This document shows, piece by piece, positions 7,062-23,139 of a stretch of DNA of 64,000 nt. The notes under the pieces were generated by a model. That model did not search any database, had not been told where the DNA came from, and saw only the letters and a program-made list of their open reading frames with translations. Numbering within the stretch: the first letter of the stretch is position 1; every line of letters begins with the position of its first letter. The position numbers and the translations under genes are program-made. The DNA is from an uncultured Nocardioides sp. (GTDB lineage Bacteria > Actinomycetota > Actinomycetes > Propionibacteriales > Nocardioidaceae), in contig CAZAQE010000028.1 in assembly GCA_964487275.1 (NCBI GenBank), positions 262-64,261 on the forward strand, read 5' to 3'.

Positions 7062-7106
7062 GGGAGACACCTTCCCACACGCTCCCGACACGAGCACCGG
7101 CGGCGG

Positions 7107-8696
7107 TCACCGGGCCACGACCCTCGGTCCGGCTCCCCCGGCGACGACCGCGACATCGCCCTCCTCGTCGGTCCGGTGCACCTCGGCGCCGGCAGCACGG
7201 AGGCCGTCGAGCAGGTCGGGTGCCGGGTGGCCGTAGTCGTTGTCGGCACCCACCGACACCAGCGCGAGCTCCGGGCGCAGCGAGGTGAGCCAGCGCTCGT
7301 CCTGGTGACGGCTGCCATGGTGGGGCACCTTGAGGACGTCGACGTCGAGGCCCGGGAGCAAGCGGGCGAGTTCGGCCTGGCCGGGTGGCTCGATGTCGCC
7401 GGTGAGGAGCAGCCGGAGCCCGGCGACGTCGACCACGAGCACCACGCTGGCATCGTTGGCGGAGCTGCCGTCGCCCGCCCCCGGCACCGGCACGGGGACG
7501 TCCGGGTGCACGACCTGGATCGTGGCCGTGCCGACCCTGCGGGTCGCGCCGTACGACGCCCTCCGCACCGGCACCCCCGCCCGGGCCGCCACTTCGCGGA
7601 CCTCGTCCACCGCCGCCGGCGGGTCCAGCACCGAGGTCACCTCGACGGCACCGACGCGGCGTCCACGCACCACCCCGGCCAGGCCGTCGACGTGGTCGGC
7701 GTGGAAGTGGGTCAGCACGACGAGCGGGACCTGCTCGACACCGAGCCGGTCGAGACAGCCGTCGACGGCCTCCGGATCGGGGCCCGCGTCGACCACGACC
7801 GCGGCTCCCGGACCGACCGACACCGCGAGCGCGTCGCCCTGCCCGACGTCGCAGGCCACCAGCACCCAGCCCGCCGGCGGCCACCCGAAGGAAGGCGTCG
7901 ACCAGATCCGGCCCGGCACCCCCAGGACGACCAGCAGGAGCAGCACCGCGAGCGAGACACCCCACGCCCGGTGGCGCACGATCCGGGGCAGGACGACGGC
8001 GACCGCGACGCAGAGCCCGACGAGCAGCAGCACGGCCAGCGGCCCGGTACCCCATGCGACCGCCGCTCCGGGCAGGTCCGCACCACGCTCGGCGACCGCG
8101 ATGATCCACGCGACGCACCACGCCGCGCCGGTGCCGACCACCCGGCCGGCAGCCGGGAGCACCAGCCCGACCAGCCCGCCGAGCAGGCCGAGCACGGTCG
8201 CCGGTCCGACCGCCGGACCCGCGAGGAGGTTGGCCAGCACCGCGACCAGGCTGACCTGGCCCGACAGCACCGCCACGACCGGCGTGCAGGCCAGCTGCGC
8301 GGCCGTCGGCACCGCCACCGCCTCGGCGAGGCCGCGGGGCATCCACCGGGAGAGCGCCTCGGCCAAGGGCGGGCCCAGCAGCACGATCCCTCCGGTCGCG
8401 AGGACCGAGAGCGCGAAGCCGGCCGACGTGGCGAGCGCGGGATCGACCAGCACCAGCACGACCAGCGCGACACCGAGCGCCCGCAGGCCGCGACGGCGCC
8501 CGTCCGGCCCGAAGGCGAACAGCCCGACCGTGCCCATCGCCGCCGCTCGCAGCACGCTCGGCTCCGTGCGGGCGAGCAGGACGAACCCGATGATCCCGGC
8601 GAGGCCGACGAGCACCAGCCAGCGGCCGCGGACGCCGACCGCCCGGGCAGCCAGCAGCAGGGCCCCGACGACGAGGGTCAGGTTGGTGCCGGACAC
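7107..8696 (-). CDS. comEC: ComEC/Rec2 3' fragment (competence membrane domain plus metallo-beta-lactamase domain), separated from its 5' part by the insertion
   Basis: 529 aa with many TM helices and MBL motif THFHADHVDG...VPHHGS. The frame stays open upstream to 8720 (CGLTHLTAVSGTNL), so the GTG at 8696 is only a nominal start. Confidence 0.9.
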   Translation of the reverse strand: MSGTNLTLVVGALLLAARAVGVRGRWLVLVGLAGIIGFVLLARTEPSVLRAAAMGTVGLFAFGPDGRRRGLRALGVALVVLVLVDPALATSAGFALSVLATGGIVLLGPPLAEALSRWMPRGLAEAVAVPTAAQLACTPVVAVLSGQVSLVAVLANLLAGPAVGPATVLGLLGGLVGLVLPAAGRVVGTGAAWCVAWIIAVAERGADLPGAAVAWGTGPLAVLLLVGLCVAVAVVLPRIVRHRAWGVSLAVLLLLVVLGVPGRIWSTPSFGWPPAGWVLVACDVGQGDALAVSVGPGAAVVVDAGPDPEAVDGCLDRLGVEQVPLVVLTHFHADHVDGLAGVVRGRRVGAVEVTSVLDPPAAVDEVREVAARAGVPVRRASYGATRRVGTATIQVVHPDVPVPVPGAGDGSSANDASVVLVVDVAGLRLLLTGDIEPPGQAELARLLPGLDVDVLKVPHHGSRHQDERWLTSLRPELALVSVGADNDYGHPAPDLLDGLRAAGAEVHRTDEEGDVAVVAGGAGPRVVAR

Positions 8697-8699
8697 CGC

Positions 8700-8724
8700 C
8701 GTCAGGTGGGTCAGACCGCACTAG
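8700..8724. repeat. attL junction: shared core TGGGTCAG (8707..8714) plus element-side half-site CGCACTAG (8717..8724)
   Basis: The core is identical to 22381..22388. The half-site is the reverse complement of CTAGTGCG at 22365..22372. Confidence 0.75.
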
Positions 8725-8742
8725 AAGGCAACAACCACTACG

Positions 8743-10206
8743 ATGCTAAACGTGACCGAGGCCCTTGCGCGGGAGTACCTGCGAGTAAGTACCGACAAGA
8801 GTGGCCGCGGCGCGTCTGTCGCTCAGCAACACGACGAGAATCAGCGTGCCGCCGAGAGCCGCGGTTGGCGCCTGCTGCCGCCCTATAGCGAGCCTGAGGC
8901 GGTCTCGGCGTCGCGTTACTCCCGCAAGGCCCGTGAGGCGTTTGGCGACTTGCTCGAGGACATTGAATCAGGGTCGTTCGGGGCCGACGTCCTCGTTCTG
9001 TGGGAGGCGTCGCGGGGTTCCCGTCGCACGGGCGAGTGGGTCGACCTGATCGACGTCTGCGCCAGTCGCGACGTAAGGATTCACGTCACCTCCCACGGTC
9101 GGACCTACGACCCGACGAACCCCCGCGACCGCCGGACCCTTCTCGAGGACGCCGTTGATAGTGAGTACGAGTCCGCAAAACTCAGCGGCCGAGTCAGTCG
9201 CGCACTCGCCGCCAACGCGAGTGCTGGCCGTCCGCACGGGCAGATCCCCTACGGATACCGCCGCGTGTACGACGATCGCTCCGGTGCGCTGATCCGCCAG
9301 GAGCCCGATCCGGCAACCGCGCCGAACATTGCCGAGTTGTTCGCCCGCGTCCGTGCCGGCGACTCATTGCGCAGCATCGAGCGGGACTGGGCTGCGCGGG
9401 GCATCGTGAACAAGTCCGGTCGCCCCTTCGGTTCTGCGCACCTTCGCTCACTACTCGACGTTCGGGCCTACGCCGGTGACCGAGTGCACGGGAACCAAGT
9501 GCATGCCGGCGACTGGGAGCCCATCGTCGAGCGCGACACTTGGCAAGCCGTGCGAGCGATCCTCAGCGACCCGGCCCGGCGGACCAACCGGCCGGGCCGC
9601 GGCATCTACAAGGTGTCCATGATCGCCCGCTGCGGCGTCTGCGAAGGCCCGATGGCGGGAGACGCCAAAGTCGACGGACGCCGCCGAACCGAGCCCGTTT
9701 ACAGATGCCGCAACAACCACGTCACAGTTCCCCTCGCCAGCCTGGACCAACATGTCGAAGAAGTCGTCAGCGCGTACCTATCCCGCCCCGAAATCCGGAC
9801 GGCACTGTCAGCCGCCGCGGTGGAAAGCGGCGAGCTCCAAGCAGCACGGAACCGCGTGGCGAGACTCAAGGGCGAGTTAGACGACCTCTACGAGCGTGGC
9901 GCAAGCGGACAGATCTCGCCGGCAGGCGTGGCAGCGATGGAACCGGGCCTCCTAGGCCGCCTGAGCGGCGCTCAGGCCGACCTCGAGGCGCTACAGACCC
10001 CGAGTGCGCTCGTCGGCATCCTCGGCCGCGAGAGCGGTTCTGGAACGTCGCTGGGGGACCTGACCGTCGAGCGTCTTCGCGCAATCTACGACCTTGTCTG
10101 CACCCCTGACCTCCTCGGAGTTCCGCACGTCAACAGGTCATCCCGACGAGGGCCGAAACAACCCCCGGTTCGCGACCGAGTCGAGTGGCGACGCAGCTCG
10201 GACTGA
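8743..10206 (+). CDS. large serine recombinase (phage-type serine integrase)
   Basis: 487 aa. Resolvase catalytic N-domain (YLRVSTDKSG, VLVLWEASRGSRR), recombinase domain, zinc ribbon (CGVCEGPM...YRCRNNH) and a C-terminal coiled coil. Starts about 20 bp from the attL core. Confidence 0.95.
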   Translation: MLNVTEALAREYLRVSTDKSGRGASVAQQHDENQRAAESRGWRLLPPYSEPEAVSASRYSRKAREAFGDLLEDIESGSFGADVLVLWEASRGSRRTGEWVDLIDVCASRDVRIHVTSHGRTYDPTNPRDRRTLLEDAVDSEYESAKLSGRVSRALAANASAGRPHGQIPYGYRRVYDDRSGALIRQEPDPATAPNIAELFARVRAGDSLRSIERDWAARGIVNKSGRPFGSAHLRSLLDVRAYAGDRVHGNQVHAGDWEPIVERDTWQAVRAILSDPARRTNRPGRGIYKVSMIARCGVCEGPMAGDAKVDGRRRTEPVYRCRNNHVTVPLASLDQHVEEVVSAYLSRPEIRTALSAAAVESGELQAARNRVARLKGELDDLYERGASGQISPAGVAAMEPGLLGRLSGAQADLEALQTPSALVGILGRESGSGTSLGDLTVERLRAIYDLVCTPDLLGVPHVNRSSRRGPKQPPVRDRVEWRRSSD

Positions 10207-10600
10207 CGAGGCCAGGAGAACAAGATCCTCGCCATCCACAGCAAGATCTACTCGAAGTACAACAGCCAGCAGCCGGCCCAACCACCAACTCGATTAAGCG
10301 GCGCCAGTGGGCGTGTTCTGAGTGCGAATCGTGGCGGCGCCGCGCCTGCTAGATGCGCCTTTACGGGCACGCGTAGGTGCGCCCTGGGGACGAACGGGCC
10401 TCGTATGCAACACGCGCGTTAGTACGATTTTCCATGGAGGCGCCGGAAGATTCCGGCAAGGCTCCGCGCGCGGTTGGAAGAGCCGTCAGGACTGACCAGA
10501 CTGTCACCGCGCCGAGGGTTACAACCCGGTCGACTTGTCCCGGTCCCCTTGGAAAGACGCGACCGACCAGCCCCCACCCACAGACATTCACCTTCGCGAT

Positions 10601-10640
10601 CCGGGGGCGGTCACTTCCGCCAAGAAACTCCCGCCCCCGG
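10601..10640 (+). promoter_or_regulatory. 10-bp-stem hairpin CCGGGGGCGG-N20-CCGCCCCCGG just upstream of the first rightward gene
   Basis: Perfect inverted repeat read from the sequence. It lies within the 466-bp non-coding gap after int. Confidence 0.3.
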
Positions 10641-10671
10641 CTCGCTCCGTCCACTCCAAAGGAGCGACCTG

Positions 10672-10881
10672 ATGACAGTAGCCCCTTCTGCAACCCTCGA
10701 CCGAACTCGGCCGCGCTGGGCAGGCCCCACGGCCGCGGGCCGGTACATCGGCGTCACGGATCGCACGATCCGTAACTACATCGCGCGCGGACTCCTAACC
10801 GCCTATCACCTTCCCGGCTCAAACCATGTGCGGGTCGATCTGAACGAGATCGACGCCCTCATGGGAGCCGAGCGTGACTGA
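10672..10881 (+). CDS. excisionase-family HTH DNA-binding protein (69 aa)
   Basis: ATG at 10672 preceded by AAAGGAG. Segment YIGVTDRTIRNYIARGLLTAYHLPGSNHVRVDLNEID fits the MerR/Xis-type HTH_17 pattern. Confidence 0.7.
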   Translation: MTVAPSATLDRTRPRWAGPTAAGRYIGVTDRTIRNYIARGLLTAYHLPGSNHVRVDLNEIDALMGAERD

Positions 10882-11020
10882 GGCCGAGGCGAATCGGAGG
10901 CATGCCGCCTCAGTAGCCATGAGCGCTCCCGCTCCGTCGATGGATCAGCTCGAGCGGTTGGCGCGACTCCTGCGACCGACCGAGCCCTCCCCTGCCCTCT
11001 TGACTAGTGAGGCCGCGTGA
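10874..11020 (+). CDS. possible small ORF (48 aa)
   Basis: GTG overlaps the end of the previous gene. Its TGA overlaps the next start (GTGATG). Below the track threshold and has no recognisable domain. Confidence 0.3.
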   Translation: MTEAEANRRHAASVAMSAPAPSMDQLERLARLLRPTEPSPALLTSEAA

Positions 11021-11238
11021 TGAAGCGCCTCACTGTCGCCACTGTCACTCCCGCGCTCGACGTCTGGAACGGGTACGGCAGCCGCGACCTGCTCGAGCAG
11101 CACCGCGGCCGGCCTCCGGTCTGGTCGTCGAACCCCCGCGGCTGGGTCGCTCAGCCGGCCAACCGTGCTGACCTCATCGCCCTCGCCGAGCTCCGTGGAT
11201 TCGACGTGCGGGTCGAGGAAGCCGAGGTGGTCCGGTGA
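11020..11238 (+). CDS. hypothetical protein (72 aa)
   Basis: Track ORF 11017..11238 (GTG 11017 or ATG 11020). Stop overlaps the next start (GTGA). Confidence 0.5.
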   Translation: MKRLTVATVTPALDVWNGYGSRDLLEQHRGRPPVWSSNPRGWVAQPANRADLIALAELRGFDVRVEEAEVVR

Positions 11239-11504
11239 CCGATCCAGACCGCTTCTTCCGCGATCTGATGGCCGACTGCATGGCCGACGCGCTCGCTCAC
11301 CAGTGGCGAGAACGAGCCGACGTCATCAGAGCTGCTCGACCAAGGGAAGGCGATTACCTGGGGCAGAGCACAGTCGACGACCAGCGGGCACGGTGGCACC
11401 GCATGACCGCGATGGCCGCCGCTTGCGACGCCAAGGCCACCGTTGTCGCACGCGTGATGTTCCCGGAGATCGAGGACTTCCCCTTTTGGGAGGAGGCCGC
11501 GTGA
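11235..11504 (+). CDS. hypothetical protein (89 aa)
   Basis: Track ORF with overlapping GTGA junctions on both sides. Confidence 0.5.
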   Translation: MTDPDRFFRDLMADCMADALAHQWRERADVIRAARPREGDYLGQSTVDDQRARWHRMTAMAAACDAKATVVARVMFPEIEDFPFWEEAA

Positions 11505-12055
11505 GGGACCGCCAGAAGAAGATCGACTTCGAGCTAGACGAGTTCTCAGCCCACCGCAACGAGCACTGGAACGACAAGGCGGCCAACCCCCGGCACCCGC
11601 TCGCCCTCCGGGTCTACTTCGCCGCCCTCGGCCATCGTCGAGTCGGTGGCCACGCACCCTTCACGACGGGCGAGCTGGCCGAGTTGCTGGTGAACACCGA
11701 CGCGGTGATCCCGGACCGTCGCCGGGTGGCCGAGGCGATCCGGCAGTGCGTCCAGTGGGGCTACCTGGCGGAAGGCAGCAACGCCCTGTGTCTGGTGGTT
11801 CCGCTCGACGACGTCCAGGGCGGTCGGGGGCAGGAGTACCGCTGCCGCCGCAGCCACAGCAAGCGCGCAGCACAGGCCCATGCTGACGGCTGCGACTGCC
11901 CCCGCTGCTCACATGTGTCCGTGCCCAAACGGACACATGCCCCCGAAGTGTCCGTGCTCAACGTGGACACATTGCCCCTAGGTGTCCGCTTCCAGCCGGA
12001 CACCTCAAGCGGTGGCTCTCTCTTCTCTCTACCAACCCACGAGGAATCCGCATGA
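11501..12055 (+). CDS. hypothetical protein with a probable winged-helix DNA-binding domain (184 aa)
   Basis: Trimmed from track ORF 11165..12055 to the GTG at 11501, which is coupled to the previous stop. Segment FTTGELAELLVNTDAVIPDRRRVAEAIRQCVQWGYLAEG looks like a wHTH. C-terminus has CDCPRC. Confidence 0.5.
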   Translation: MRDRQKKIDFELDEFSAHRNEHWNDKAANPRHPLALRVYFAALGHRRVGGHAPFTTGELAELLVNTDAVIPDRRRVAEAIRQCVQWGYLAEGSNALCLVVPLDDVQGGRGQEYRCRRSHSKRAAQAHADGCDCPRCSHVSVPKRTHAPEVSVLNVDTLPLGVRFQPDTSSGGSLFSLPTHEESA

Positions 12056-12159
12056 GCGTCCAAATCCAATCCTGCGAACACCCGGCCGACGACCCGCGCT
12101 GGACCTGTTCCGCCTGCATCACCCACCTCGCCGCCGACCTCGACGGGAGTGACCGATGA
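12052..12159 (+). CDS. possible Cys-rich mini-protein (35 aa)
   Basis: ATG at 12052 overlaps the previous TGA, and its stop overlaps the next ATG. Sequence MSVQIQSCEHPADDPRWTCSACITH.... Confidence 0.35.
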   Translation: MSVQIQSCEHPADDPRWTCSACITHLAADLDGSDR

Positions 12160-12509
12160 ACGTCATCGGCGTCGAACACCTCACCCTCGAAACCCGAGAC
12201 CCCATCCAGCCGACGCTCGCCCGTTACGGCTTCGACCTCGGCCACCAGCACATCGGCCGCGACGACGTCTCCGTAGCCGTGTTCCGTGCCTCTGAATGCT
12301 TGGGGCTGGCGTCCCAGCCGCCCGCGTGGTTCGGCGTCGAGGAGCAGCCCGAGGACGCTGCTGCCTACTACTGGTGCGCCACCCCAGACAGCGACGACCG
12401 GCCTGCCGGTGCCCCGCTGCACGTCTCGACCACCGTGCCCTACCTCGAGCCCCGCTACGGCGACTCCTGGATCGCTTTCGTCGTCGAGATCCCCGAGACA
12501 GAGGAGTAG
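12156..12509 (+). CDS. hypothetical protein (117 aa)
   Basis: Track ORF, translationally coupled to the upstream mini-ORF. Confidence 0.5.
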   Translation: MNVIGVEHLTLETRDPIQPTLARYGFDLGHQHIGRDDVSVAVFRASECLGLASQPPAWFGVEEQPEDAAAYYWCATPDSDDRPAGAPLHVSTTVPYLEPRYGDSWIAFVVEIPETEE

Positions 12510-12513
12510 GCCC

Positions 12514-12831
12514 GTGCTCAGCAGCGAACAGCCTCGCCTCGCCCCCGACGACCTCGACCGCGCCAAGGATGCGTTCAACCACAGCCCCGCCTGTCAGGGC
12601 ACCGTCTGGGCCAGCTACGTCAACCGACTCGGCTCCCCGATGCTCCGATGCCGCGGCTGCGAACGTATCGTCCCCGTCGCCCGGCTCCTCGATCAGCTCA
12701 GGGAAGTCCCTCTCCGGCGCTACGTGATGCCCTGCATCCGCTGCGACCAGGACATCCGGCTCTACCGACCCAAGCCCCGCATCCCGCTGCACGAGAGCTG
12801 TGCTCGTAGGCGGCGCCAGGAGGGCCGCTGA
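12514..12831 (+). CDS. zinc-ribbon-like Cys-rich protein (105 aa)
   Basis: Trimmed from track ORF 12286..12831 to the in-frame GTG at 12514. Paired CxxC motifs (CRGC ... CIRC). Confidence 0.45.
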   Translation: MLSSEQPRLAPDDLDRAKDAFNHSPACQGTVWASYVNRLGSPMLRCRGCERIVPVARLLDQLREVPLRRYVMPCIRCDQDIRLYRPKPRIPLHESCARRRRQEGR

Positions 12832-12832
12832 G

Positions 12833-13219
12833 GTGCGATGGACGTTCCTGGCCGACGGGACGCCGTGCGTCGTCCTTGCGGCCGATGACAGCCTCTCCGA
12901 GCTTGTTGCGCTTGTCGACAGGACCGACCGCGCCACCGCCTACGCAGGCCGTCTCCCGTCGCCTGCGGCCGGACAGTTCGTGCGCCTTGGGCGGCACGTT
13001 CTCGCGGTTGCCGCACTGGTTCCGCAGCGGGAACCAACCACCGCGTCAGGGGCCTCCGGATCGGCACGATGGATCACAACGAAGGAAGCCGCAGACATCC
13101 TGCGAGTCACCGAGCGAGCCGTGCGCAAACGCATCGCCAACGGGTCACTCACGGCCCAAATGCTCGGCGGTCGCTGGCTCATAGACCTCAAGGAGATCCC
13201 CAATGCTGCAGCCGCATAA
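12833..13219 (+). CDS. protein with C-terminal excisionase-type HTH (128 aa)
   Basis: GTG at 12833 lies 9 nt after AGGAGG (the track start at 12800 is also possible). C-terminus WITTKEAADILRVTERAVRKRIANGSLTAQMLGGRWLIDLKEI. Confidence 0.6.
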   Translation: MRWTFLADGTPCVVLAADDSLSELVALVDRTDRATAYAGRLPSPAAGQFVRLGRHVLAVAALVPQREPTTASGASGSARWITTKEAADILRVTERAVRKRIANGSLTAQMLGGRWLIDLKEIPNAAAA

Positions 13220-13979: not shown

Positions 13980-14107
13980 TGGACGGGGCATGCCGATCCT
14001 GCGAAGCGACCGAGTGCCCGACCGGCTGCGTGCGGCTCATCCAAGCCGACCGCCACGTCTGCGGGGCCAAGTGCTGCGACGACTGCACCCACACCCCTGG
14101 GGGGTGA
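13979..14107 (+). CDS. Cys-rich mini-protein (42 aa, 9 Cys)
   Basis: ATG overlaps the previous TGA (TGATG). Sequence MDGACRSCEATECPTGCVRLIQADRHVCGAKCCDDCTHTPGG. Confidence 0.4.
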   Translation: MDGACRSCEATECPTGCVRLIQADRHVCGAKCCDDCTHTPGG

Positions 14108-14203
14108 CTCCCCTCGGACCCCGAATCGAGGACTGTGGGTGAGGGCGCTCCGAGGTGCGGCACGCATTCTCGCTCGTTTTCCGATGACCATGAAGGAGGC
14201 CCT

Positions 14204-14671: not shown

Positions 14672-14832
14672 GGCGCCGTGAGAAGCAGCCCCCTCCGGAG
14701 CCTGAGCCGCCAGCGGAGGAGCGACAGTCGGACGTCCGCGACCGATTTCCCGTCCACTGCTCTGAGTGCGGCGCCGGCCCGCTCCCGCGTCCGTGGCGCG
14801 GAGGTGCGCGATGCCCGAACCACGCCCGCTAG
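14668..14832 (+). CDS. possible zinc-ribbon mini-protein (54 aa)
   Basis: ATG overlaps the TerS stop (ATGA). Sequence ...FPVHCSECGAGPLPRPWRGGARCPNHAR. Below the track threshold. Confidence 0.35.
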   Translation: MRRREKQPPPEPEPPAEERQSDVRDRFPVHCSECGAGPLPRPWRGGARCPNHAR

Positions 14833-14929
14833 CCGCGACGCCTCACTCGCTCAAGCGACAGGGCACTGTCCCCCCGTGGTACGGGGGCGCGCCCTGCCGC
14901 ACTACGACCGTACTTCCGAAGGAGAACCG

Positions 14930-18006: not shown

Positions 18007-18142
18007 CTAGTGTCAAGCAGTACGACTACAACGACCTTCTGGGCGAGATGGAGCATGTCCGGCGGTCTTGACAGGTACGGGCGTGCGGCGGCCAAAGCGG
18101 TGCGAGCGTAGTTCTGTCCCGGTAATCTGCGCCCATGGTCGG

Positions 18143-18183
18143 CACCCATCCCTCTCCTCGAGCGTTGCGCTGAGGGATGGGTG
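18143..18183 (+). terminator. 12-bp-stem hairpin downstream of the tape-measure gene
   Basis: CACCCATCCCTC-N17-GAGGGATGGGTG. No U-tract. Confidence 0.35.
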
Positions 18184-18325
18184 CGCACAACGCCGCGAAG
18201 GCGCATAGCGCCGTCTGCCAGGCGGTCCGATCGTGGCGCTGATCGCTCAGCCGCCAGGGGTTCGTGCCACCCGCGACGGCGGGAAGTGGAAGTTCGCGCG
18301 TGGGATCACTGGCTCAAACTTCGTG

Positions 18326-18706
18326 ATGAACGACTTCGCAACCCTCGAAGCCCGGCTGGGCGCGCGGGTTCTCGAAGTGGTTAAGGCGGAGTTGTTTTTC
18401 AAGATGCGGCAAGCCGAGTTCGGGCGGCTCGCTTACGGGCGCGGACCCGAGTTTGACGTAGAGCAGATGGCCGCCGCCCCTGACGTGCTGGAGCTTCGCT
18501 TGTCCGATCGAAGCGGCGACGACGAGAACCTCCTGCACATGCGGTTCTTCTTTTCGGAGCCACTCGATCTTCCCGGTTCACTGGTCGGCCTCGGCCTGCT
18601 CTGGAAGCGACCGGGTGGGATCGATCAGGAGATGCAGACCCAGACGGCCCTGCGTGCCTCGCTTCGGCTGCAGGAGTACACGCAACGAGAGGACTACGGA
18701 TTGTGA
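18326..18706 (+). CDS. RelE/HigB-like (Gp49/DUF891-type) toxin candidate (126 aa)
   Basis: Track ORF 18233..18706; the ATG at 18326 is preferred. Segment VLELRLSDRSGDDENLLHMRFFFSEP...LVGLGLLWKRPGG...Q..A resembles the ELR...YR..YF...KK pattern of Gp49-like toxins. An XRE gene follows. Confidence 0.45.
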   Translation: MNDFATLEARLGARVLEVVKAELFFKMRQAEFGRLAYGRGPEFDVEQMAAAPDVLELRLSDRSGDDENLLHMRFFFSEPLDLPGSLVGLGLLWKRPGGIDQEMQTQTALRASLRLQEYTQREDYGL

Positions 18707-18713
18707 GATTCCC

Positions 18714-18729
18714 GTCAACCGACGTTGAC
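18714..18729 (+). promoter_or_regulatory. palindrome GTCAAC-CGAC-GTTGAC in an A/T-richer spacer upstream of the XRE gene; candidate operator
   Basis: Perfect 6-bp inverted repeat. A second palindrome TCATATGA lies at 18751..18758. AGGAGG is at 18761. Confidence 0.3.
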
Positions 18730-18772
18730 CTGTTGGCTATGATCAATAAGTCATATGACAAGGAGGTGTGAC

Positions 18773-19162
18773 ATGGAGCTAGAGGAGCTTCTCGGGATCG
18801 ATCTGCGAAACCCGCTGCAGATGCGGGCTAAGCGGATGGTGGAGGCCGACGAGAACTTTCTTGACGAGCTTGTCCGCCTGCGAAAGGCGAAGGGCCTGTC
18901 TCAAGAGGTCGTCGCCGACAGGATGGAAATCTCCCAGAGCGCGGTCGCGCGCATCGAGTCTGGAGAGCGCGATCCTCGTCTTTCGACCCTTCGGCGCTAT
19001 GCGATGGCGGTCGGCGCCGTCTACTCCCACACTGTCGACGATGACGAGCCGCGGATCCTGAAGACTCCCATCGGGGGCGAGCATCGCTCGATGGAAGACC
19101 CTTGGCCCGCAGTCGAGCGGCCGAAGATTCACCGAGGCAAGGTGCCGAGCGCAGGTGCCTGA
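18773..19162 (+). CDS. XRE-family HTH transcriptional regulator / antitoxin candidate (129 aa)
   Basis: ATG at 18773 lies 6 nt after AGGAGG. HTH_3 motif LRKAKGLSQEVVADRMEISQSAVARIESGERDPRLSTLRRYAMAVG. Confidence 0.8.
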   Translation: MELEELLGIDLRNPLQMRAKRMVEADENFLDELVRLRKAKGLSQEVVADRMEISQSAVARIESGERDPRLSTLRRYAMAVGAVYSHTVDDDEPRILKTPIGGEHRSMEDPWPAVERPKIHRGKVPSAGA

Positions 19163-19634
19163 TCCGCGCTTTGGAGAAGATTGGCCCGATGCGTTCATCG
19201 GTGGATACGCGATCAGCCGACTACTCCGCCGTTCGGACCACGAGAACGACGAGCCCGGCATGGCCTGGAAGATCTATCCGGCCATCTTCGAGTTCGACGG
19301 GGACGATCCGGCCAACCGGCCGACCTTGGCCATCGTCGGGGACTTCACGCTGTGGGCTGGCTCGGAGTGGGCCGGCGTCCGAGCGCATGCCAACCTCTTC
19401 GTCAGGGATGTCGAGCCACTGACTGACGATGAGTGGCAGGCTGCCAATGAACTCACCGTGCAGCATGTCGATTGGTTGGAGCGCGGCCTGTACGACTTCG
19501 TCGCTCAGGCCATGCGCGCGATGATGGCGAGCGGGTCAGGCCTCACTGTTCCCAGGAGCACGCCAGACTATGAACTCCTTCTCGTGGACATAGACGAGGT
19601 CGTGAACGACAGCGGCTTCCGGGATGCCGACTAG
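19155..19634 (+). CDS. hypothetical protein (159 aa)
   Basis: GTG start overlaps the XRE gene by 8 nt. No recognisable domain. Confidence 0.5.
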   Translation: MPDPRFGEDWPDAFIGGYAISRLLRRSDHENDEPGMAWKIYPAIFEFDGDDPANRPTLAIVGDFTLWAGSEWAGVRAHANLFVRDVEPLTDDEWQAANELTVQHVDWLERGLYDFVAQAMRAMMASGSGLTVPRSTPDYELLLVDIDEVVNDSGFRDAD

Positions 19635-19640
19635 GCTGGC

Positions 19641-19952
19641 ATGACCGGGCGAGGCGGCTACAAGCAGACCGACGGAATCGTCGTCGCCCGCCTCTGCGGC
19701 ACGTCACGTCAACTAGCAACCGGGCACGCCGAGGATGACGAAGCGATCGCCGAACTCCAGGCAATCACGACCCGCGTCGAGCTGTTGAGCCAGGCTGCCG
19801 GCGTCTGCATGGCCCAGCACCGTTACAGCGCCGCGGTCCATCCGTTCGCAAGTCGGTCGGCGGACCTGTTGTTCGCTGCTGGCGCTGACCTCGAGTTGGC
19901 CGAGAAGCAGGCTGCACTGTCGCTCGCCTCATTGAATGGCAACCGCCCCTGA
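19641..19952 (+). CDS. hypothetical protein (103 aa)
   Basis: Starts 6 nt after the previous stop. A hairpin (GCCCCTCGG ... CCGAGGGGC, about 19957..19997) follows. Confidence 0.45.
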   Translation: MTGRGGYKQTDGIVVARLCGTSRQLATGHAEDDEAIAELQAITTRVELLSQAAGVCMAQHRYSAAVHPFASRSADLLFAAGADLELAEKQAALSLASLNGNRP

Positions 19953-20098
19953 GTGCCCCTCGGACGCTTGGTTGTCTCTCCGCCCACCCGAGGGGCTGTC
20001 CTTTCTCGGGGACGCGACGACGCTACGACGAGCAGCGACCCAAGAGGAACAGTTCGGATCCTCTGATTTGCGTCGGAGTCCGGGCCTAGGGTGCCGGC

Positions 20099-20551
20099 AT
20101 GAAGTCCTCACGTGCTCTGGTGGCGGCCCTGGTTGCGATCGGGTTGCTGGCTGTGGGGCTTGCTGCCGCCTTGGGGATCGTCCTCGCAAACGATGATTCG
20201 GACGACTCGCCCAGCAGGGCTAGCGACGTGTCGTCTGAGACGTCGGAGTCTCCGATGTCGCCTCTCCGGCCTGCGTGGCTCGCGTGCCGCGACTTTGACG
20301 AGGACGGCACGGTGGCGCTGACGGACGAAGACCAGTCGATCGTCATCAGCACGGGTCAGTACGGATCGGGTGTCGCGGCGGACTGCATCCTCGACCAACT
20401 TGAGGTCTCGGAGGCCATCCGGTCACAGGTGGACCACACCACGGCGATGATGGGCGTCCAGACTGCGGATCAGGATGGCCTCGCCTACCAGTGGTCGTAT
20501 CACCCCGACAACGGCCTGAATATGACCATCACGGTGGACGGATCCGAGTAG
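20099..20551 (+). CDS. membrane-anchored/secreted hypothetical protein (150 aa)
   Basis: N-terminal signal/anchor MKSSRALVAALVAIGLLAVGLAAALGIVLA, an acidic Ser-rich linker, then a globular domain with 2 Cys. Confidence 0.6.
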   Translation: MKSSRALVAALVAIGLLAVGLAAALGIVLANDDSDDSPSRASDVSSETSESPMSPLRPAWLACRDFDEDGTVALTDEDQSIVISTGQYGSGVAADCILDQLEVSEAIRSQVDHTTAMMGVQTADQDGLAYQWSYHPDNGLNMTITVDGSE

Positions 20552-20566
20552 CCGGACCCCAGGACG

Positions 20567-20791
20567 CTAGTTGTTTGGTCGCCGCCGAGCGCTCGCCGCC
20601 CTAGCAGTTCGCGCAGGCGTGACCGCCTGCTTCGCGATGATCTCCTCGACCATCCCGTCGGTGAACCGCCACACCGACCGCTTCGGCTTCACGCACGGCC
20701 AGCCGCCACCAGGGCGACACTTCATACGGACGTCGTCGACCGTGATTCCCAGAAGGTCGGTCAACTCGACGTCGGTGAGCAGCCTGTTCAT
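20567..20791 (-). CDS. excisionase/AlpA-type HTH protein (74 aa)
   Basis: Track ORF trimmed to the ATG at 20791 (MNRLLTDVELTDLLGITVDDV...VWRFTDGMVEEII). Paralogue of the adjacent gene. Confidence 0.6.
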   Translation of the reverse strand: MNRLLTDVELTDLLGITVDDVRMKCRPGGGWPCVKPKRSVWRFTDGMVEEIIAKQAVTPARTARAASARRRPNN

Positions 20792-20805
20792 CTCTTCAAG
20801 CCCTC

Positions 20806-21036
20806 TCAATCACGGCGACGTTCCCGAGCGCCGGGAAACATCGGCTTCACCTCTGGCGCCGGCGTGACTAGGTGGCGCGCCAGGATCTCCCGGACCTGCT
20901 CTTCGGTAAACCGCACCGTCTTGCCCAGCCGGTAATGAGGCCACCCCTCGCTCTTGCGGAGCTGAACGACGGTCGAGAGCGGCATGTTTAGCCGCTCTGC
21001 GAGGTCGGCGTGCGTGAGCAGGCGATTGCTGTCCAT
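20806..21036 (-). CDS. excisionase/AlpA-type HTH protein (76 aa)
   Basis: ATG at 21036 (the track start at 21042 is TTG). Sequence MDSNRLLTHADLAERLNMPLSTVVQLRKSEGWPHYRLGKTVRFTEEQVREIL. Confidence 0.65.
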   Translation of the reverse strand: MDSNRLLTHADLAERLNMPLSTVVQLRKSEGWPHYRLGKTVRFTEEQVREILARHLVTPAPEVKPMFPGARERRRD

Positions 21037-21056
21037 GGCCAACAGAGAACAGCATC

Positions 21057-21266
21057 GTGCTCATGCAGAACTACCTGACCCCCGAGCAAGCCGCCGAACT
21101 CTTGCCCTTCGGCAATCCGGATTGGATCCGTGCCCAGCTCCGGGCTGGTCGTCTGCGTGGCTCGAAGGTCGGTGGCCGCTGGCTGGTGGAGCCGGCCGCT
21201 CTCGAGGAGATGGTCTCGGCCGGCTCCAATCAGCAGGTCAGACGTCGGCGGCGCCGTACTACTTGA
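21057..21266 (+). CDS. excisionase-type HTH protein (69 aa), divergent from 20806..21036
   Basis: YLTPEQAAELLPFGNPDWIRAQLRAGRLRGSKVGGRWLVEPAALEEMV with an Arg-rich tail. Start is GTG 21057 or ATG 21063. Confidence 0.6.
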   Translation: MLMQNYLTPEQAAELLPFGNPDWIRAQLRAGRLRGSKVGGRWLVEPAALEEMVSAGSNQQVRRRRRRTT

Positions 21267-21360
21267 CTGTCGCGAGGATGCGGGCGATCTCCTCAACCTG
21301 CTGGTCGGTGATCGGCGGCAGACTGGCGACGAACGCAGCCGCCCTCTCTTCGGGAGTCAT
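21259..21360 (-). CDS. possible mini-protein (33 aa)
   Basis: ATG at 21360 within track ORF 21259..21471. Sequence MTPEERAAAFVASLPPITDQQVEEIARILATVK. Confidence 0.3.
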   Translation of the reverse strand: MTPEERAAAFVASLPPITDQQVEEIARILATVK

Positions 21361-21392
21361 GCTCGGATCCTTGTCTCTCGTCCGCGGCTCAG

Positions 21393-21761
21393 TCACGGGA
21401 CGACATTGTCGTTGAGGCGCATGGCCTCGGCTGCTTCGGTCGCCTCCCTGACGTTCGCATCGAGAGCACACGCCATCGCGATCGACAGCTTCTCAATGAA
21501 CAGCGAGGCAGCGGCGCCACTGGGGAACGAGTGCTGCCCGCCCTCCAGGTAGACCCAGGGTTCCCACGGCTGCTCACCCCACGCGATCGCGCTGACTTCC
21601 CAGACGTTTGGGAACGCGGTGAACTCGTCGGGACGAGCCTTGCGAGACTGGTTGCCCCACTTCACCTCATGCAACACGAGGCCGTTCTCACCGGGAGTGT
21701 GCGAGCCCTGGCGATAGGCGGTGTCGCACGGGAAGCGATAACACCGGACGGCGGCGCTCAT
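21393..21761 (-). CDS. hypothetical protein (122 aa)
   Basis: Track ORF. ATG overlaps the stop of the upstream gene (ATGA). Confidence 0.5.
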   Translation of the reverse strand: MSAAVRCYRFPCDTAYRQGSHTPGENGLVLHEVKWGNQSRKARPDEFTAFPNVWEVSAIAWGEQPWEPWVYLEGGQHSFPSGAAASLFIEKLSIAMACALDANVREATEAAEAMRLNDNVVP

Positions 21762-22018
21762 CGGACGACCCTCAGGTTGGCGCGACCGGCCGGCCGGTCG
21801 TCGTCGCGGACATACCCGTAGGCCCCCGCCTCGCGCCCGAGCTCGAATGCCCGTCGGACCTGACGGCTGTAGGTCTTGTTGAAGTGCACCACGAGGGGGC
21901 CGACAACGAATCCCGCTCCGGAGCTGTGGGGCAGGGCCTCACGAACGCACCAGCGCACGCGGGTCAGGATGGGGGTAGCGCTTTCGAGCGCAGCAGTAGT
22001 ACCGTTTAGTTCAGACAT
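21758..22018 (-). CDS. hypothetical protein (86 aa)
   Basis: Track ORF, first sizeable gene of the leftward module. Confidence 0.5.
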   Translation of the reverse strand: MSELNGTTAALESATPILTRVRWCVREALPHSSGAGFVVGPLVVHFNKTYSRQVRRAFELGREAGAYGYVRDDDRPAGRANLRVVR

Positions 22019-22042
22019 TGTGTTCCCTTTCGGAACGCCCGG

Positions 22043-22111
22043 CCCTGGTGGAGTTGCAGCTCCCCAGGGCCTGCTTGTTTCTCTGGGTCGAGAGGGCGGT
22101 TGCAGCCGCCC
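22043..22111 (-). ncRNA. two hairpins sharing the same hexaloop (CUGCAA on the coding minus strand); possible regulatory RNA structures
   Basis: 22043..22069: CCCTGG(T)GGAG-TTGCAG-CTCC-CCAGGG. 22094..22111: GGGCGG-TTGCAG-CCGCCC. Both lie in the 5' untranslated gap upstream of 21758..22018. Confidence 0.3.
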
Positions 22112-22211
22112 CTGAATCGCTGGTTCCTACGCCGTGCCGGTGATCGGCAGGCGGGACCGGGTCCTAAGTGGTCTAGACGGGTTCATCACCTCCTCTCGTC
22201 GTTGAGCCGCA

Positions 22212-22340
22212 TCAGCCGAGGAAGATGCGGTGGCCGACCTGCTCCATCAGGGTCGGTGGCTGCTGGGACGCGAGCAGCAGGCAGGTGGCCGTGATGGCGG
22301 CGAAGATGGTGCACAGCACCAGCGCGGGGATGAGTCGCAC
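22212..22340 (-). CDS. possible hydrophobic mini-protein (42 aa) at the element's right edge
   Basis: GTG at 22340 lies 8 nt after GGAGG. Sequence VRLIPALVLCTIFAAITATCLLLASQQPPTLMEQVGHRIFLG. Below the track threshold. Confidence 0.35.
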   Translation of the reverse strand: MRLIPALVLCTIFAAITATCLLLASQQPPTLMEQVGHRIFLG

Positions 22341-22364
22341 GGTAGGGACCTCCAGAGATAGCAA

Positions 22365-22395
22365 CTAGTGCGCTTCATCATGGGTCAGGCCGGTC
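22365..22395. repeat. attR junction: element-side half-site CTAGTGCG (22365..22372) plus shared core TGGGTCAG (22381..22388)
   Basis: The core is identical to 8707..8714 and in the same comEC codon phase. Confidence 0.75.
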
Positions 22396-23123
22396 GTCCG
22401 GAAGTCCGCCTCGACCTCGGCGGGCAGGCCGGCGTCGTCGCCGTCGACGAGGGCCGGGACGAGCCCGGCCTGCGCGGGCGGCCGGTGGGCCACGGAGTCG
22501 CGGATAGCGGACCGCACGGCTCCCGCCGCGCGCCACCACGGGTCGGGACCACGGATCCGGACCGGCGACCGGCCGGAGAGCAGCAGGGCCCCGTCCTGCG
22601 GGCTGTCCGACGGCGCGAGGCGACCCTCGGCGAGCACCCGCTCCCCCAGCTCCACCCCGGCCCACGCCGGGTCGCCGAGGACGACGACGGACCCGCCGAG
22701 GCTCCGGCGCTCACCGCGGGCGGTTGCCTCCTCCACCCGCAGCCGTACGACGACCCGGTCGCCCCACTGCCCGTCCACCCTCCGCGGGTCGGACACCACG
22801 GTGCCGACCAGGTCGGCGGTGGCCCGGCCGGCCGCCCACGTGCTCAGCGGGCTCGTCGCCACCGCCTCCAGCCTCAGCAGGGCTCCGGCGAGCACCGCCG
22901 CGCCGACGACGACGGACGCGAGGACCAGCCGCCGCCCGGGTGACCCGCGGCCGGCGCGGCCGGTCCAGGCGAGGGCGCCGGCCACGGCCAGCAACGCGAC
23001 CAGCACCGGCACGGCCAGACCGCCGCTGCGGGTCGCCGCGATCCCGCCCAGCCACGCCGAGCAGCCCAGCACCGGCATCCGGAAGTCGTGCCCGGGCCGG
23101 GCGTGGGGCGCCGGCTCAGCCAC
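22365..23123 (-). CDS. comEC: ComEC 5' fragment (N-terminal TM plus DUF4131-like region), truncated four codons into the insertion
   Basis: 252 aa ending ...EADFRTTGLTH followed by element-encoded DEAH and a stop. It continues seamlessly into 8706..7107 if the element is removed. Confidence 0.85.
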   Translation of the reverse strand: MAEPAPHARPGHDFRMPVLGCSAWLGGIAATRSGGLAVPVLVALLAVAGALAWTGRAGRGSPGRRLVLASVVVGAAVLAGALLRLEAVATSPLSTWAAGRATADLVGTVVSDPRRVDGQWGDRVVVRLRVEEATARGERRSLGGSVVVLGDPAWAGVELGERVLAEGRLAPSDSPQDGALLLSGRSPVRIRGPDPWWRAAGAVRSAIRDSVAHRPPAQAGLVPALVDGDDAGLPAEVEADFRTTGLTHDEAH

Positions 23124-23139
23124 CGGCCACTCTCCTAGG

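What the first reader, a model, noticed from the sequence alone, without database searches (positions are those of the whole stretch)
7107..23123. comEC is interrupted in frame by a 13.7-kb insertion, and the two halves rejoin seamlessly across an 8-bp shared core
The 5' fragment (23123..22365, minus strand) ends ...FRTTGLTH, then reads four element-encoded codons (DEAH) and a stop. The frame of the 3' fragment is open from 8720 and reads CGLTHLTAVSGTNLTLVV.... The octamer TGGGTCAG occurs at 8707..8714 and 22381..22388 in the same codon phase (Leu codon CTG at 8714..8712 and at 22388..22386). Deleting one core copy plus everything between gives ...FRTTGLTHLTAVSGTNL..., the conserved start of the ComEC competence domain, and a protein of about 780 aa. 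This is a clean site-specific insertion, not decay. It may act as a reversible switch on a DNA-uptake channel gene, like known phage-mediated switches in comK, sigK and spsM of Firmicutes. I am not aware of an actinobacterial comEC example.
Basis: seen in the sequence. Interest (0 to 1): 0.88.

Follow-up and report, generated by a model that had tools for sequence, protein, structure and literature searches.

The report
Phage-like element splits Nocardioides comEC
A 13.7-kb phage-derived mobile element carrying a large serine recombinase sits precisely inside the DNA-uptake channel gene comEC of a Nocardioides bacterium. The same conserved comEC motif is used as a landing site by related elements across the Actinomycetota. 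This extends a behaviour already known from streptococcal prophages, and a regulated "switch" is not shown.

Summary
comEC (minus strand) is split at ...GLTH by 13,666 bp of lower-GC DNA flanked by TGGGTCAG. Joining the halves gives a 780-aa ComEC that aligns without gaps to orthologues.

A near-isogenic strain (99.6-99.8% nt identity in both flanks) carries the empty site, and its sequence equals the predicted attB. Its ComEC differs from the joined product by one residue.

The element encodes a large serine recombinase 28 bp from the left core, several excisionase-like HTH proteins, an Xre repressor, a small-terminase-like protein and a tape-measure-like protein. No capsid, portal or large terminase gene was detected.

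Related integrases (72-78% identical) sit at the identical comEC position in other hosts. A second, distant recombinase lineage inserts 5-8 codons downstream in at least six further genera, including a full-size prophage. All adjoining comEC fragments are still open frames.

Serine-recombinase prophages in comEC are already known in streptococci, at a different motif. I found no actinobacterial report.

Verdict: a real, recently mobile, site-specific insertion and a new member of a known kind. The "reversible switch" reading is possible but untested. Blocking transformation, or simple use of a conserved dispensable target, is at least as likely.

The parts
22365..23123 (-). comEC 5' fragment: 252 aa, N-terminal membrane and DUF4131 part, ending GLTH plus 4 element-encoded codons (DEAH) and TAG
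22381..22388 (.). Right copy of the shared core TGGGTCAG (CTGACCCA on the comEC sense strand). The predicted crossover dinucleotide is TG at 22381-22382.
8715..22380 (.). Inserted element: 13,666 bp, 66.3% GC against ~72-73% in the flanks
8707..8714 (.). Left copy of the shared core TGGGTCAG. The predicted crossover dinucleotide is TG at 8707-8708.
7107..8720 (-). comEC 3' fragment: the frame is open from 8720, the mechanical ORF is 7107..8696 (529 aa); it holds the rest of the Competence domain and the Lactamase_B domain
8743..10206 (+). Large serine recombinase (487 aa) that starts 28 bp from the left core and is divergent from the comEC 3' fragment
   Evidence: Pfam Resolvase E=2.7e-21, Recombinase E=2e-11, Zn_ribbon_recom weak. 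phrog_95 integrase E=6e-68. The family profile hits SPbeta YokA/SprA and TP901-1 integrase structures.
8715..8735 (.). Element-side arm of predicted attP, carrying CGCACTAG (+ strand). It is the inverted partner of CTAGTGCG at the right end.
22360..22380 (.). Other element-side arm of predicted attP (CTAGTGCG...). It supplies the DEAH codons and the stop that end the 5' fragment.
10672..10881 (+). 69-aa excisionase-like/MerR HTH protein downstream of the integrase; a candidate directionality factor
   Evidence: weak: HTH_17 E=1.5e-4, phrog_66 E=1e-6
11501..12055 (+). 184-aa protein of unknown function. It is conserved at 36% identity in the related element on L002.
12800..13219 (+). HTH_17 (excisionase-family) DNA-binding protein
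14135..14671 (+). Small-terminase-like protein (P27 family; below the curated cut-offs)
   Evidence: phrog_1496 E=5e-14. Pfam Terminase_4 22.5 bits against a cut-off of 24.7. TIGR01558 24.3 bits against 45.6.
15193..18006 (+). 937-aa protein resembling a tail tape measure protein
   Evidence: 12 PHROG tape-measure families, best E=1.8e-13. Weak tblastn hits to annotated tape measure genes.
18755..19162 (+). Xre-type HTH regulator, a candidate repressor
   Evidence: Pfam HTH_3 E=3e-13
20567..21042 (-). Two small genes on the comEC strand: an 80-aa protein with no family match in Pfam or PHROGs, and a 78-aa HTH_17/excisionase-like protein
21057..21266 (+). 69-aa HTH_17 protein
21393..22364 (-). 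Right-end genes of 122, 86 and ~42-50 aa. They are co-oriented with, and directly downstream of, the comEC 5' fragment. They are conserved in the related element on L059 (88%, 59% and 82% identity).
6090..7097 (-). holA (DNA polymerase III delta), immediately downstream of comEC; host flank
24212..25147 (-). comEA (SLBB + HHH_3), intact; host flank. An HPP/CBS gene lies between it and comEC on the + strand.

Best explanation
A phage-derived integrative element (13.7 kb) has inserted by large-serine-recombinase (LSR) site-specific recombination into an attB inside the most conserved motif of comEC (G-L-T-H-L-T-A-V-S-G-T-N). This is a Nocardioides genome close to N. aromaticivorans.

Shown:
- precise insertion
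- an intact recombinase next to the junction
- an empty site in a near-isogenic strain
- the same site occupied by diverged relatives in other hosts

Inferred:
- The recombinase pairs attP (arms CTAGTGCG...CGCACTAG) with attB and exchanges strands at a central dinucleotide, probably CA on the sense strand, within the 8-bp core.
- While integrated, ComEC is cut into an N-terminal fragment and a channel-plus-nuclease fragment, so DNA uptake should be abolished.
- Excision by the integrase plus an unidentified directionality factor would restore the gene exactly. Several excisionase-like HTH proteins are candidates.

The element lacks detectable capsid, portal and large-terminase genes but keeps small-terminase-like and tape-measure-like genes. 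It is therefore either a satellite-like element or a deletion derivative of a prophage.

The likeliest reason for this target is that it is an invariant sequence in a conserved but dispensable gene. Silencing transformation, which can delete integrated elements, may be an added benefit to the element.
For: - Seamless join and domain continuity.
- Empty site identical to the predicted attB in L058, which is 99.6-99.8% identical in both flanks. Its ComEC, P0250, is 1 aa different from the joined product.
- LSR domains with a YLRVS serine motif and a conserved C-x2-C...C...H. Distant profile match to the SPbeta and TP901-1 integrases.
- attP and attB both show dyad symmetry about the same non-palindromic CA inside the core, scoring 11/20 and 10/20. 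attP has an 8-bp perfect inverted repeat.
- Independent occupancy of the identical position. L002 plus L059 give both junctions, with an integrase 78% identical, in a host whose ComEC is 95% identical. L060 has an integrase 72% identical in a host with LTHLAAVSGTNL.
- 5' fragments ending GLTHDEPH* (P0256-P0258) occur alongside intact alleles of the same lineage (P0001, P0249, P0252).
- A distant LSR clade (38-43% identical) inserts 5-8 codons downstream in Pseudarthrobacter, Arthrobacter, Microbacterium, Brachybacterium, Granulicoccus and another Nocardioides. Two human-gut contigs also show this, one carrying a full set of siphovirus head and tail genes.
- All comEC fragments next to these elements remain long open frames.
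- The Logan contig L001 begins exactly 30 nt (k-1 for k=31, which I take from memory to be the Logan assembly k-mer size) before the base where attL and attB diverge. This is what a graph branch between occupied and empty sites in one sample would give.
- Phage ancestry of the cargo.
Against: - No excision product (attP) was found. An exact search of IMG/VR for the attP junction gave nothing, and no relative of the integrase is present there.
- The dyad symmetry is modest, and in attB another axis scores slightly higher. The crossover dinucleotide is therefore a prediction.
- The directionality factor is not identified.
- The terminase and zinc-ribbon matches are below curated cut-offs.
- One close integrase relative (L061, 74% identical) lies next to a truncated IS3 orfA rather than comEC, so specificity is not absolute or that locus has been rearranged.
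- Natural transformation has not been shown for Nocardioides. ComEC function is inferred from homology and from Micrococcus luteus, for which papers on natural transformation and com genes were retrieved but not read.
Confidence: 0.9

Rival explanations
1. Regulated genetic switch (active lysogeny or developmental excision). The host exploits the element. Under competence-inducing conditions the element excises without killing the cell, comEC is restored and DNA uptake occurs, and the element later reintegrates. One concrete version: transcription from the comEC promoter reads through the truncated 5' fragment into the co-oriented right-end genes, one of which is the directionality factor, so that competence induction triggers excision.
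For: - Excision would restore the gene exactly.
- comEC fragments are undecayed in seven independent lineages.
- Occupied and empty sites coexist among near-identical strains, and possibly within one sample.
- Conserved right-end genes lie directly downstream of, and co-oriented with, the 5' fragment, with a GGAGG-GTG start 20 nt after its stop.
- Precedent exists in Listeria comK (PMC7397523).
Against: - No evidence of conditional excision.
- Undecayed fragments and presence/absence polymorphism are equally expected for recent insertions of an ordinary mobile element.
- The architecture is not conserved. In L031, L032 and L039 the integrase itself follows the 5' fragment, whereas in the window, L038, L041, L049 and L099 it lies at the other end.
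- The cargo differs completely between lineages.
- No promoter-like or terminator-like signals were detected at the right end.
- Nocardioides has no known terminal differentiation (background knowledge).
Confidence: 0.12
2. Immobile remnant. A prophage integrated at comEC, then lost most structural and lysis genes, and is now a fixed, defective insertion that permanently inactivates comEC in this lineage.
For: - No capsid, portal, large terminase, tail tube or lysis genes were detected.
- The small-terminase-like gene lies close to the tape-measure-like gene, as an internal deletion of the head and tail genes would leave it.
Against: - The integrase is a full-length ORF and both junctions are exact. 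The two cores are identical.
- A strain 99.6-99.8% identical lacks the element.
- A diverged relative (integrase 78% identical) keeps the same right-end layout, including the distance from the end of the tape-measure gene to the junction. This points to a persisting small-element family rather than one-off decay.
- comEC shows no secondary damage.
Confidence: 0.15
3. Artefact or transposition. The split is an assembly chimera in a metagenome-assembled contig, or the 8-bp repeat is a target-site duplication made by a transposase.
For: The window appears to be a metagenome-derived contig of 64,262 bp. An 8-bp direct repeat is also what many transposons leave.
Against: - Independent assemblies reproduce the left junction at 100% identity (L001), and both junctions are reproduced in another sample (L002, L059).
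- No transposase was detected in the element.
- The element side of both junctions forms an attP-like palindrome that already contains the core.
- Insertion at the identical nucleotide position in hosts with different comEC alleles is site-specific recombination, not transposition.
Confidence: 0.02

Closest known systems
Streptococcal comEC-integrating elements: prophage Phi1207.3 / Phi10394.4 and Tn1207.1 (S. pyogenes, S. pneumoniae celB), and S. suis phage phi-SsuSH0918_comEC
   Same: These are phage or phage-like elements that integrate site-specifically inside the comEC coding sequence using serine recombinases. The insertion is precise and occurs at a defined dinucleotide, disrupting the DNA-uptake channel gene (PMC4260502).
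   Different: - Different phylum (Bacillota, not Actinomycetota).
- Different position in the gene. In the S. suis record the ComEC fragment resumes at ...DADHVGD, which is the metallo-beta-lactamase HxHxDH motif near residue ~580. Here the insertion is at the start of the Competence domain, residue ~248.
- Those elements carry two or three recombinase genes, two of them in tandem. Here there is a single 487-aa LSR.
- They are 50-kb phages carrying resistance genes. Here the element is 13.7 kb and has no detected head genes.
Listeria monocytogenes comK prophage (A118 / phi10403S), 'active lysogeny'
   Same: A prophage (which, from memory, uses a serine integrase) interrupts a competence gene, and precise excision restores the reading frame (PMC7397523).
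   Different: In Listeria, excision is shown experimentally to be conditional (inside macrophages) and non-lytic, and the target is the regulator comK. Here the target is the channel gene and no conditional excision is shown.
SPbeta (spsM) and skin (sigK) elements of Bacillus, excised by the serine recombinases SprA and SpoIVCA
   Same: A large serine recombinase excises an intervening phage-derived element to rebuild a split gene. The profile of the present integrase family matches the SPbeta integrase structures (9dxh, 9dxd).
   Different: From memory, those excisions occur in a terminally differentiating mother cell under sporulation sigma factors. No such cell type is known in Nocardioides. 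Sequence similarity to SprA is marginal (E=3e-5).
Pneumococcal prophages in comYC and ssbB, and elements in comM of Gram-negative bacteria ('chromosomal curing' arms race)
   Same: Mobile elements recurrently and independently target genes needed for transformation, which protects them from deletion by incoming DNA (PMC12637031, PMC12378983).
   Different: Those cases are supported by population genomics and experiments in naturally transformable species. Here transformability of the hosts is unknown, and the benefit to the element is inferred only from recurrence of the target.
Actinobacterial LSR phages with attB inside host genes (Bxb1 in groEL1, phiC31 in a pirin-like gene; recalled from memory)
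   Same: Actinobacterial temperate phages use large serine integrases with short attB sites inside conserved coding sequences. The integrase gene lies next to attP.
   Different: The target gene is different. The nearest sequenced phage integrases are only ~33-36% identical (Rhodococcus and Gordonia phages).

Membership tests
Large serine recombinase (LSR) integrative elements | N-terminal resolvase catalytic domain with a nucleophilic serine | tested here: met
   Pfam Resolvase PF00239 E=2.7e-21 over residues 12-163. The Y12-L-R-V-S16 motif is conserved in >=90% of 12 relatives.
Large serine recombinase (LSR) integrative elements | C-terminal Recombinase domain plus zinc ribbon | tested here: met
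   PF07508 E=2e-11. The zinc ribbon PF13408 scores 20.1 bits, below its 25.3 cut-off, but C297, C300, C322 and H326 are invariant in the family. phrog_95 integrase E=6e-68. The family profile hits SPbeta YokA structures over residues 53-322.
Large serine recombinase (LSR) integrative elements | Short attP and attB with imperfect dyad symmetry around a shared non-palindromic central dinucleotide, with the integrase gene next to attP | tested here: met
   The best attP axis (11/20, with an 8-bp perfect inverted repeat) and the second-best attB axis (10/20) both centre on CA, the last two bases of the core on the sense strand. The integrase starts 28 bp from the core. The symmetry is modest, so the exact crossover is a prediction.
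Large serine recombinase (LSR) integrative elements | Recombination directionality factor needed for excision | not testable with these tools
   Four small HTH_17/MerR-like proteins, one of them a weak match, are candidates. Directionality factors of LSRs share no common family, so none can be assigned from sequence.
Phage regulatory switch / active lysogeny | The element interrupts a host ORF and precise excision restores it | tested here: met
   In-silico join and a natural empty site identical to the predicted attB.
Phage regulatory switch / active lysogeny | Excision is conditional, non-lethal and followed by reintegration or maintenance | not testable with these tools
   This needs cultures or read-level data. 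The only hint is that the Logan contig ends exactly k-1 before the attL/attB divergence, which could equally reflect two co-occurring strains.
Mobile elements that target competence genes (anti-curing) | Recurrent, independent insertion of different elements into a gene required for DNA uptake | tested here: met
   At least 11 occupied loci, three sub-sites within about 30 bp, two LSR clades separated on a neighbour-joining tree, and unrelated cargo.
Mobile elements that target competence genes (anti-curing) | The host is naturally transformable and the insertion lowers transformation | not tested
   No data exist for Nocardioides. Papers on natural transformation and com genes in the actinobacterium Micrococcus luteus were retrieved but not read (PMC4322843, PMC8467076).
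Streptococcal Phi1207.3 / Tn1207.1 type comEC insertion | The same target position in comEC | tested here: not met
   In the S. suis comEC phage record the ComEC fragment resumes at the HxHxDH motif of the beta-lactamase domain. Here the split is at residue ~248 of 780, in the Competence domain.
Streptococcal Phi1207.3 / Tn1207.1 type comEC insertion | Tandem pair of serine recombinase genes at the element end | tested here: not met
   The window element has a single LSR gene. Phi1207.3 and the S. suis phage have two adjacent ones.
Phage satellites (PICI-like elements) | Small (~10-15 kb) integrative element with integrase, regulators and packaging-related genes but without a full virion gene set | tested here: inconclusive
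   Size 13.7 kb, with integrase, Xre regulator, HTH proteins and a small-terminase-like gene but no detected head genes. No recognisable replication module was found, and a tape-measure-like gene is atypical. An internal deletion of a prophage explains the content equally well.
Phage satellites (PICI-like elements) | Mobilisation depends on a helper phage | not testable with these tools
   No helper is known. No relative was found in IMG/VR or among sequenced phages.

The most novel reading that the evidence does not exclude
The comEC insertion is a self-resolving competence switch conserved in Actinomycetota. Induction of the comEA/comEC promoter would read through the truncated 5' fragment into element genes, either a directionality factor in the window-type elements or the integrase itself in the Micrococcales-type elements. 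This would trigger precise excision and restore the DNA-uptake channel only in a subpopulation. It would be active lysogeny acting on the channel gene rather than on a regulator, in a phylum where control of competence is almost unknown.
Probability: 0.1. Interest if true: 0.8.

Novelty: new member of a known kind. Interest (0 to 1): 0.5.

Why it matters
- **Extends a known conflict to a new phylum.** Competence and mobile elements are known to oppose each other in Bacillota and Proteobacteria. Here the same behaviour appears in Actinomycetota, where natural transformation is hardly studied. Repeated targeting of comEC by unrelated elements in at least seven genera suggests that ComEC-dependent DNA uptake matters in these bacteria. 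If it did not, silencing it would bring the elements no gain, although a purely "conserved, dispensable target" explanation remains open.
- **Offers candidate genome-engineering tools.** The work defines new large serine integrases with predicted attP/attB pairs and a target present in most actinobacterial genomes. Integrases such as phiC31 and Bxb1 are already used in this way in high-GC bacteria.
- **Gives a practical annotation rule.** A comEC split at the GLTHLxAVSGxN motif in an actinobacterial genome should be read as an occupied attB, not as a pseudogene.

Tried and rejected
- **attP search.** An exact search of IMG/VR viral contigs for the predicted attP junction (with two degenerate positions) gave no match. 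A search of IMG/VR for relatives of the integrase also found none. No free or circular form was therefore found.
- **Exact protein look-ups.** The joined ComEC was absent, partly because I entered V rather than M at the GTG start. The near-identical P0250 was found through its cluster instead. A look-up of the 252-aa fragment in the contig index found nothing.
- **Structures.** A single-sequence search of the integrase against PDB sequences gave no hit at E<=1e-5. Only the family profile reached SPbeta and TP901-1.
- **Signals.** A promoter and terminator scan of the right end (21800-22420) found nothing. This says little in a 70% GC organism.
- **Shared cargo.** tblastn of all window element proteins against the other comEC-associated loci found shared genes only in the close relatives L002 and L059. 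Nothing is shared with the Micrococcales-type elements except the integrase. I therefore rejected the idea of one conserved "comEC element".
- **Unassigned proteins.** Pfam, PHROGs and NCBIfam gave no function for the 258-, 184-, 157-, 159-, 150-, 122- and 86-aa proteins.
- **Rejected readings.** Transposon target duplication, assembly chimera and AICE/ICE were all considered. For the last, no conjugation function turned up in the family scans of the element's proteins.
- **Other features in the window.** Rfam and tRNA scans found only one tRNA-Ala at 40433-40507, unrelated to the element.


Full report
**1.

On the minus strand the ORF 23123..22365 (252 aa) ends ...FRTTGLTH, then DEAH and TAG. 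The frame of the downstream fragment opens at 8720 and reads CGLTHLTAVSGTNLTLVV. TGGGTCAG lies at 8707-8714 and 22381-22388 in the same phase.

Removing one copy plus the 13,666 bp between them gives a 780-aa protein. Pfam finds DUF4131, then Competence as a single stretch (residues 225-487, profile 1-266 of 270) that runs across the join at residue ~248, then Lactamase_B. Sixteen Nocardioides and Pimelobacter orthologues, many of exactly 780 aa, align with no gap over FRTTGLTHLTAVSGTNL. The insert is 66.3% GC against 72-73.5% in the flanks.

**2. An empty site exists**

The 90%-identity cluster around the joined protein contains P0250. It differs from the in-silico product only at V777I, apart from the M/V reading of the GTG start.

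Its contig (L058, Logan SRR31358315) is 99.8% identical to window 29123-22381 and 99.6% identical to 8718-1107. The two alignments abut at the core, and the 88 nt around it equal the predicted attB base for base. N. aromaticivorans CP022295 (ComEC 88% identical) has the same uninterrupted gene and the same synteny: degV, comEA, an HPP/CBS gene on the opposite strand, comEC, holA, rpsT.

**3. It is not an assembly artefact**

A Logan contig from SRR8893624 (L001) reproduces the left junction and 3.4 kb of the element at 100% identity. That contig starts exactly 30 nt before the first base at which the occupied and empty sequences differ. I take the Logan assembly k-mer size to be 31 (from memory, not checked here). 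A k=31 graph would break there if both forms were present in the reads. This is suggestive only, because two co-occurring strains would give the same result.

**4. What the element is**

- ORF 8743-10206 (+) starts 28 bp from the left core. It is a large serine recombinase: Resolvase E=2.7e-21, Recombinase E=2e-11, and a weak zinc ribbon with invariant C297, C300, C322 and H326. It also matches phrog_95 (E=6e-68), and its family profile reaches the SPbeta and TP901-1 integrase structures.
- The rest comprises four small excisionase-like HTH_17/MerR proteins (one a weak match), an Xre regulator, a small-terminase-like protein (phrog_1496 E=5e-14, below the Pfam and TIGRFAM cut-offs), and a 937-aa tape-measure-like protein. 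About ten proteins have no match.
- No capsid, portal, large terminase or lysis gene was detected.
- No sequenced phage is close. The best integrase identity is ~36% and the tape-measure hits are marginal.

The content fits either a satellite-like element or a prophage that lost its head and tail genes by internal deletion. A diverged relative (section 6) keeps the same right-end layout, which favours a persisting small-element family.

**5. att sites**

Rebuilding attP from the two element ends gives CCTTCTAGTGCGGTCTGACC-CA-TGATGAAGCGCACTAGTTGC. Its best dyad axis (11/20, including the perfect 8-bp inverted repeat CTAGTGCG/CGCACTAG) is the dinucleotide CA that ends the core on the sense strand. 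In attB the same axis scores 10/20 (CCGGAC...GTCCGG), just behind an unrelated axis.

A shared, non-palindromic central dinucleotide flanked by imperfect inverted arms is the expected anatomy for a large serine recombinase. The exact crossover remains a prediction. The CTAG in both attP arms explains why each comEC fragment meets a stop codon right at the junction.

**6. The same position is occupied in other hosts**

- In SRR19514071 both junctions were recovered (L002, L059). The host ComEC is 95% identical and the integrase 78% identical. The junction is at the identical nucleotide, and the 5' fragment ends GLTHDEPH*. The right-end genes and the end of the tape-measure gene are conserved (59-97% identity), while the interior is mosaic, including a PIN/DUF433 pair.
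- A JGI soil contig (L060, integrase 72% identical) shows the same junction in a host whose motif reads LTHLAAVSGTNL.
- Further 5' fragments ending GLTHDEPH* (P0257, P0258) belong to the same ComEC lineage as the intact P0001, P0249 and P0252.

Presence/absence polymorphism therefore exists in at least three host lineages.

One close relative (L061, integrase 74% identical) lies beside a truncated IS3 orfA instead.

**7. A second recombinase lineage uses the same motif**

A scan of one genome per GTDB species with the integrase family returned 54 loci. In six of them the integrase abuts a comEC fragment cut 5-8 codons downstream of the window's site:

| Host | Junction |
|---|---|
| Pseudarthrobacter, Arthrobacter | ...GMTHLTAVSG\| |
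| Microbacterium halotolerans | \|ITGAN... |
| Brachybacterium | \|ISGAN... |
| Granulicoccus phenolivorans | \|ISGAN... |
| Uncultured Nocardioides (L039) | both junctions present; core GGCACCAA in the G-T-N codons; element ~10.2 kb |

A Leucobacter locus (L048) carries a comEC fragment about 3.7 kb from its integrase and was left unresolved.

These integrases are 38-43% identical to the window's. On a neighbour-joining tree they form a clade apart from the window clade, whose nearest neighbours are not next to comEC. That tree is crude, so "two independent acquisitions of the target" is likely but not proven.

Cargo differs completely:
- L039 has a large terminase, portal and major head protein.
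- L038 has a primase-helicase.
- L041 has a primase-polymerase.

Two unannotated "Bacteriophage sp." records from human faeces (70-76% GC) show the same thing. MT835531.1 has an integrase divergent from |SGSNVAVV.... MT835568.1 carries terminase, portal, head-maturation and tape-measure genes and ends in ...GMTHLTAVSG|. Full-size temperate phages therefore use this attB too.

Every comEC fragment beside these elements is still a long open frame: 523-557 aa for the three complete 3' parts (that of L039 runs open to the end of its locus) and 282-370 aa for the 5' parts.

**8. Comparison with what is known**

Serine-recombinase prophages in comEC are established in streptococci. Phi1207.3, Phi10394.4 and Tn1207.1 integrate at a GA dinucleotide in comEC/celB (PMC4260502). 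A S. suis phage record is even named for the site. That site differs from this one: the S. suis ComEC fragment resumes at the HxHxDH motif of the beta-lactamase domain.

The general idea that mobile elements silence competence genes to escape deletion by transformation is developed for the pneumococcus (PMC12637031) and reviewed in PMC12378983. The table in that review lists comEC only for S. pneumoniae, and the review never mentions Actinobacteria. My searches combining comEC with serine integrase, large serine recombinase, attB, prophage, Actinobacteria or active lysogeny returned no actinobacterial case. That library lacks most subscription journals.

**9. Switch or not**

Precise reversibility is a property of every LSR insertion, so it does not by itself indicate a regulatory role. 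The undecayed fragments and the polymorphism fit a switch, but they fit recent mobility equally well.

In favour of a switch there is one structural lead. In the window-type elements, conserved small genes lie directly downstream of, and co-oriented with, the truncated 5' fragment. In the Micrococcales-type elements the integrase itself occupies that place. The comEC promoter could therefore drive element genes.

Against it, the arrangement differs between lineages, the cargo is unrelated, and no conditional excision is documented. I put the switch at about 0.1. The plain reading is a mobile, phage-derived LSR element using a conserved comEC motif as attB, with loss of DNA uptake while resident. 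I put that at about 0.9.

**10. Verdict**

This is a real and well-defined feature, and a new member of a known kind. Its interest is moderate. The recurrence across actinobacterial orders, the new integrase/att pairs, and the hint that competence matters in these bacteria are worth a systematic survey and a simple junction-read or PCR test.

Noticed in passing
L061 2362-3596 (JGI contig Ga0136611_10035075): An integrase 74% identical to the window's lies not in comEC but directly beside an IS3-family orfA that is truncated at ...AELVKPC*. It could be a secondary target, or an IS into which the element inserted.
   Followed up: partly
L059 7445-8523 (Logan SRR19514071): The related element in another Nocardioides strain carries a PIN_10 / DUF433 gene pair (probably toxin-antitoxin). 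The window element has different genes at that position, so the cargo is mosaic between conserved ends.
   Followed up: no
L039 9984-20200 (uncultured Nocardioides sp. isolate 3-306): A ~10.2-kb element of 58% GC in a 74% GC host, inserted in comEC. It encodes large terminase, portal and major head protein but is far too small for a complete tailed phage. It may be a capsid-forming satellite or a remnant.
   Followed up: partly
L099 and L102 (GenBank MT835531.1 and MT835568.1, 'UNVERIFIED: Bacteriophage sp.', human faeces, Mexico): These virome records are prophage ends joined to host DNA of 70-76% GC. About 30 kb of MT835531.1 appears to be bacterial chromosome, starting with the comEC 3' fragment. 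The two records may be the two ends of one ~40-kb prophage in one host.
   Followed up: partly
window 6090-7109: holA (essential DNA polymerase III delta subunit) starts 9-45 bp after the comEC stop on the same strand. The 13.7-kb insertion 1.6 kb upstream implies that holA has its own promoter inside the comEC 3' part, because no element gene reads outward at that end.
   Followed up: no
window 22801-24183 (+): The mechanical 460-aa ORF overlapping the comEC start is an over-extension. The real gene is an HPP/CBS membrane protein of 344 aa on the strand opposite to comEA and comEC, and it sits between them in all relatives examined.
   Followed up: yes
L001 1-31 (Logan SRR8893624 contig): The contig starts exactly k-1 = 30 nt before the base where the occupied and empty comEC sequences diverge. 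This suggests a de Bruijn graph branch, meaning both forms were present in that sample.
   Followed up: partly
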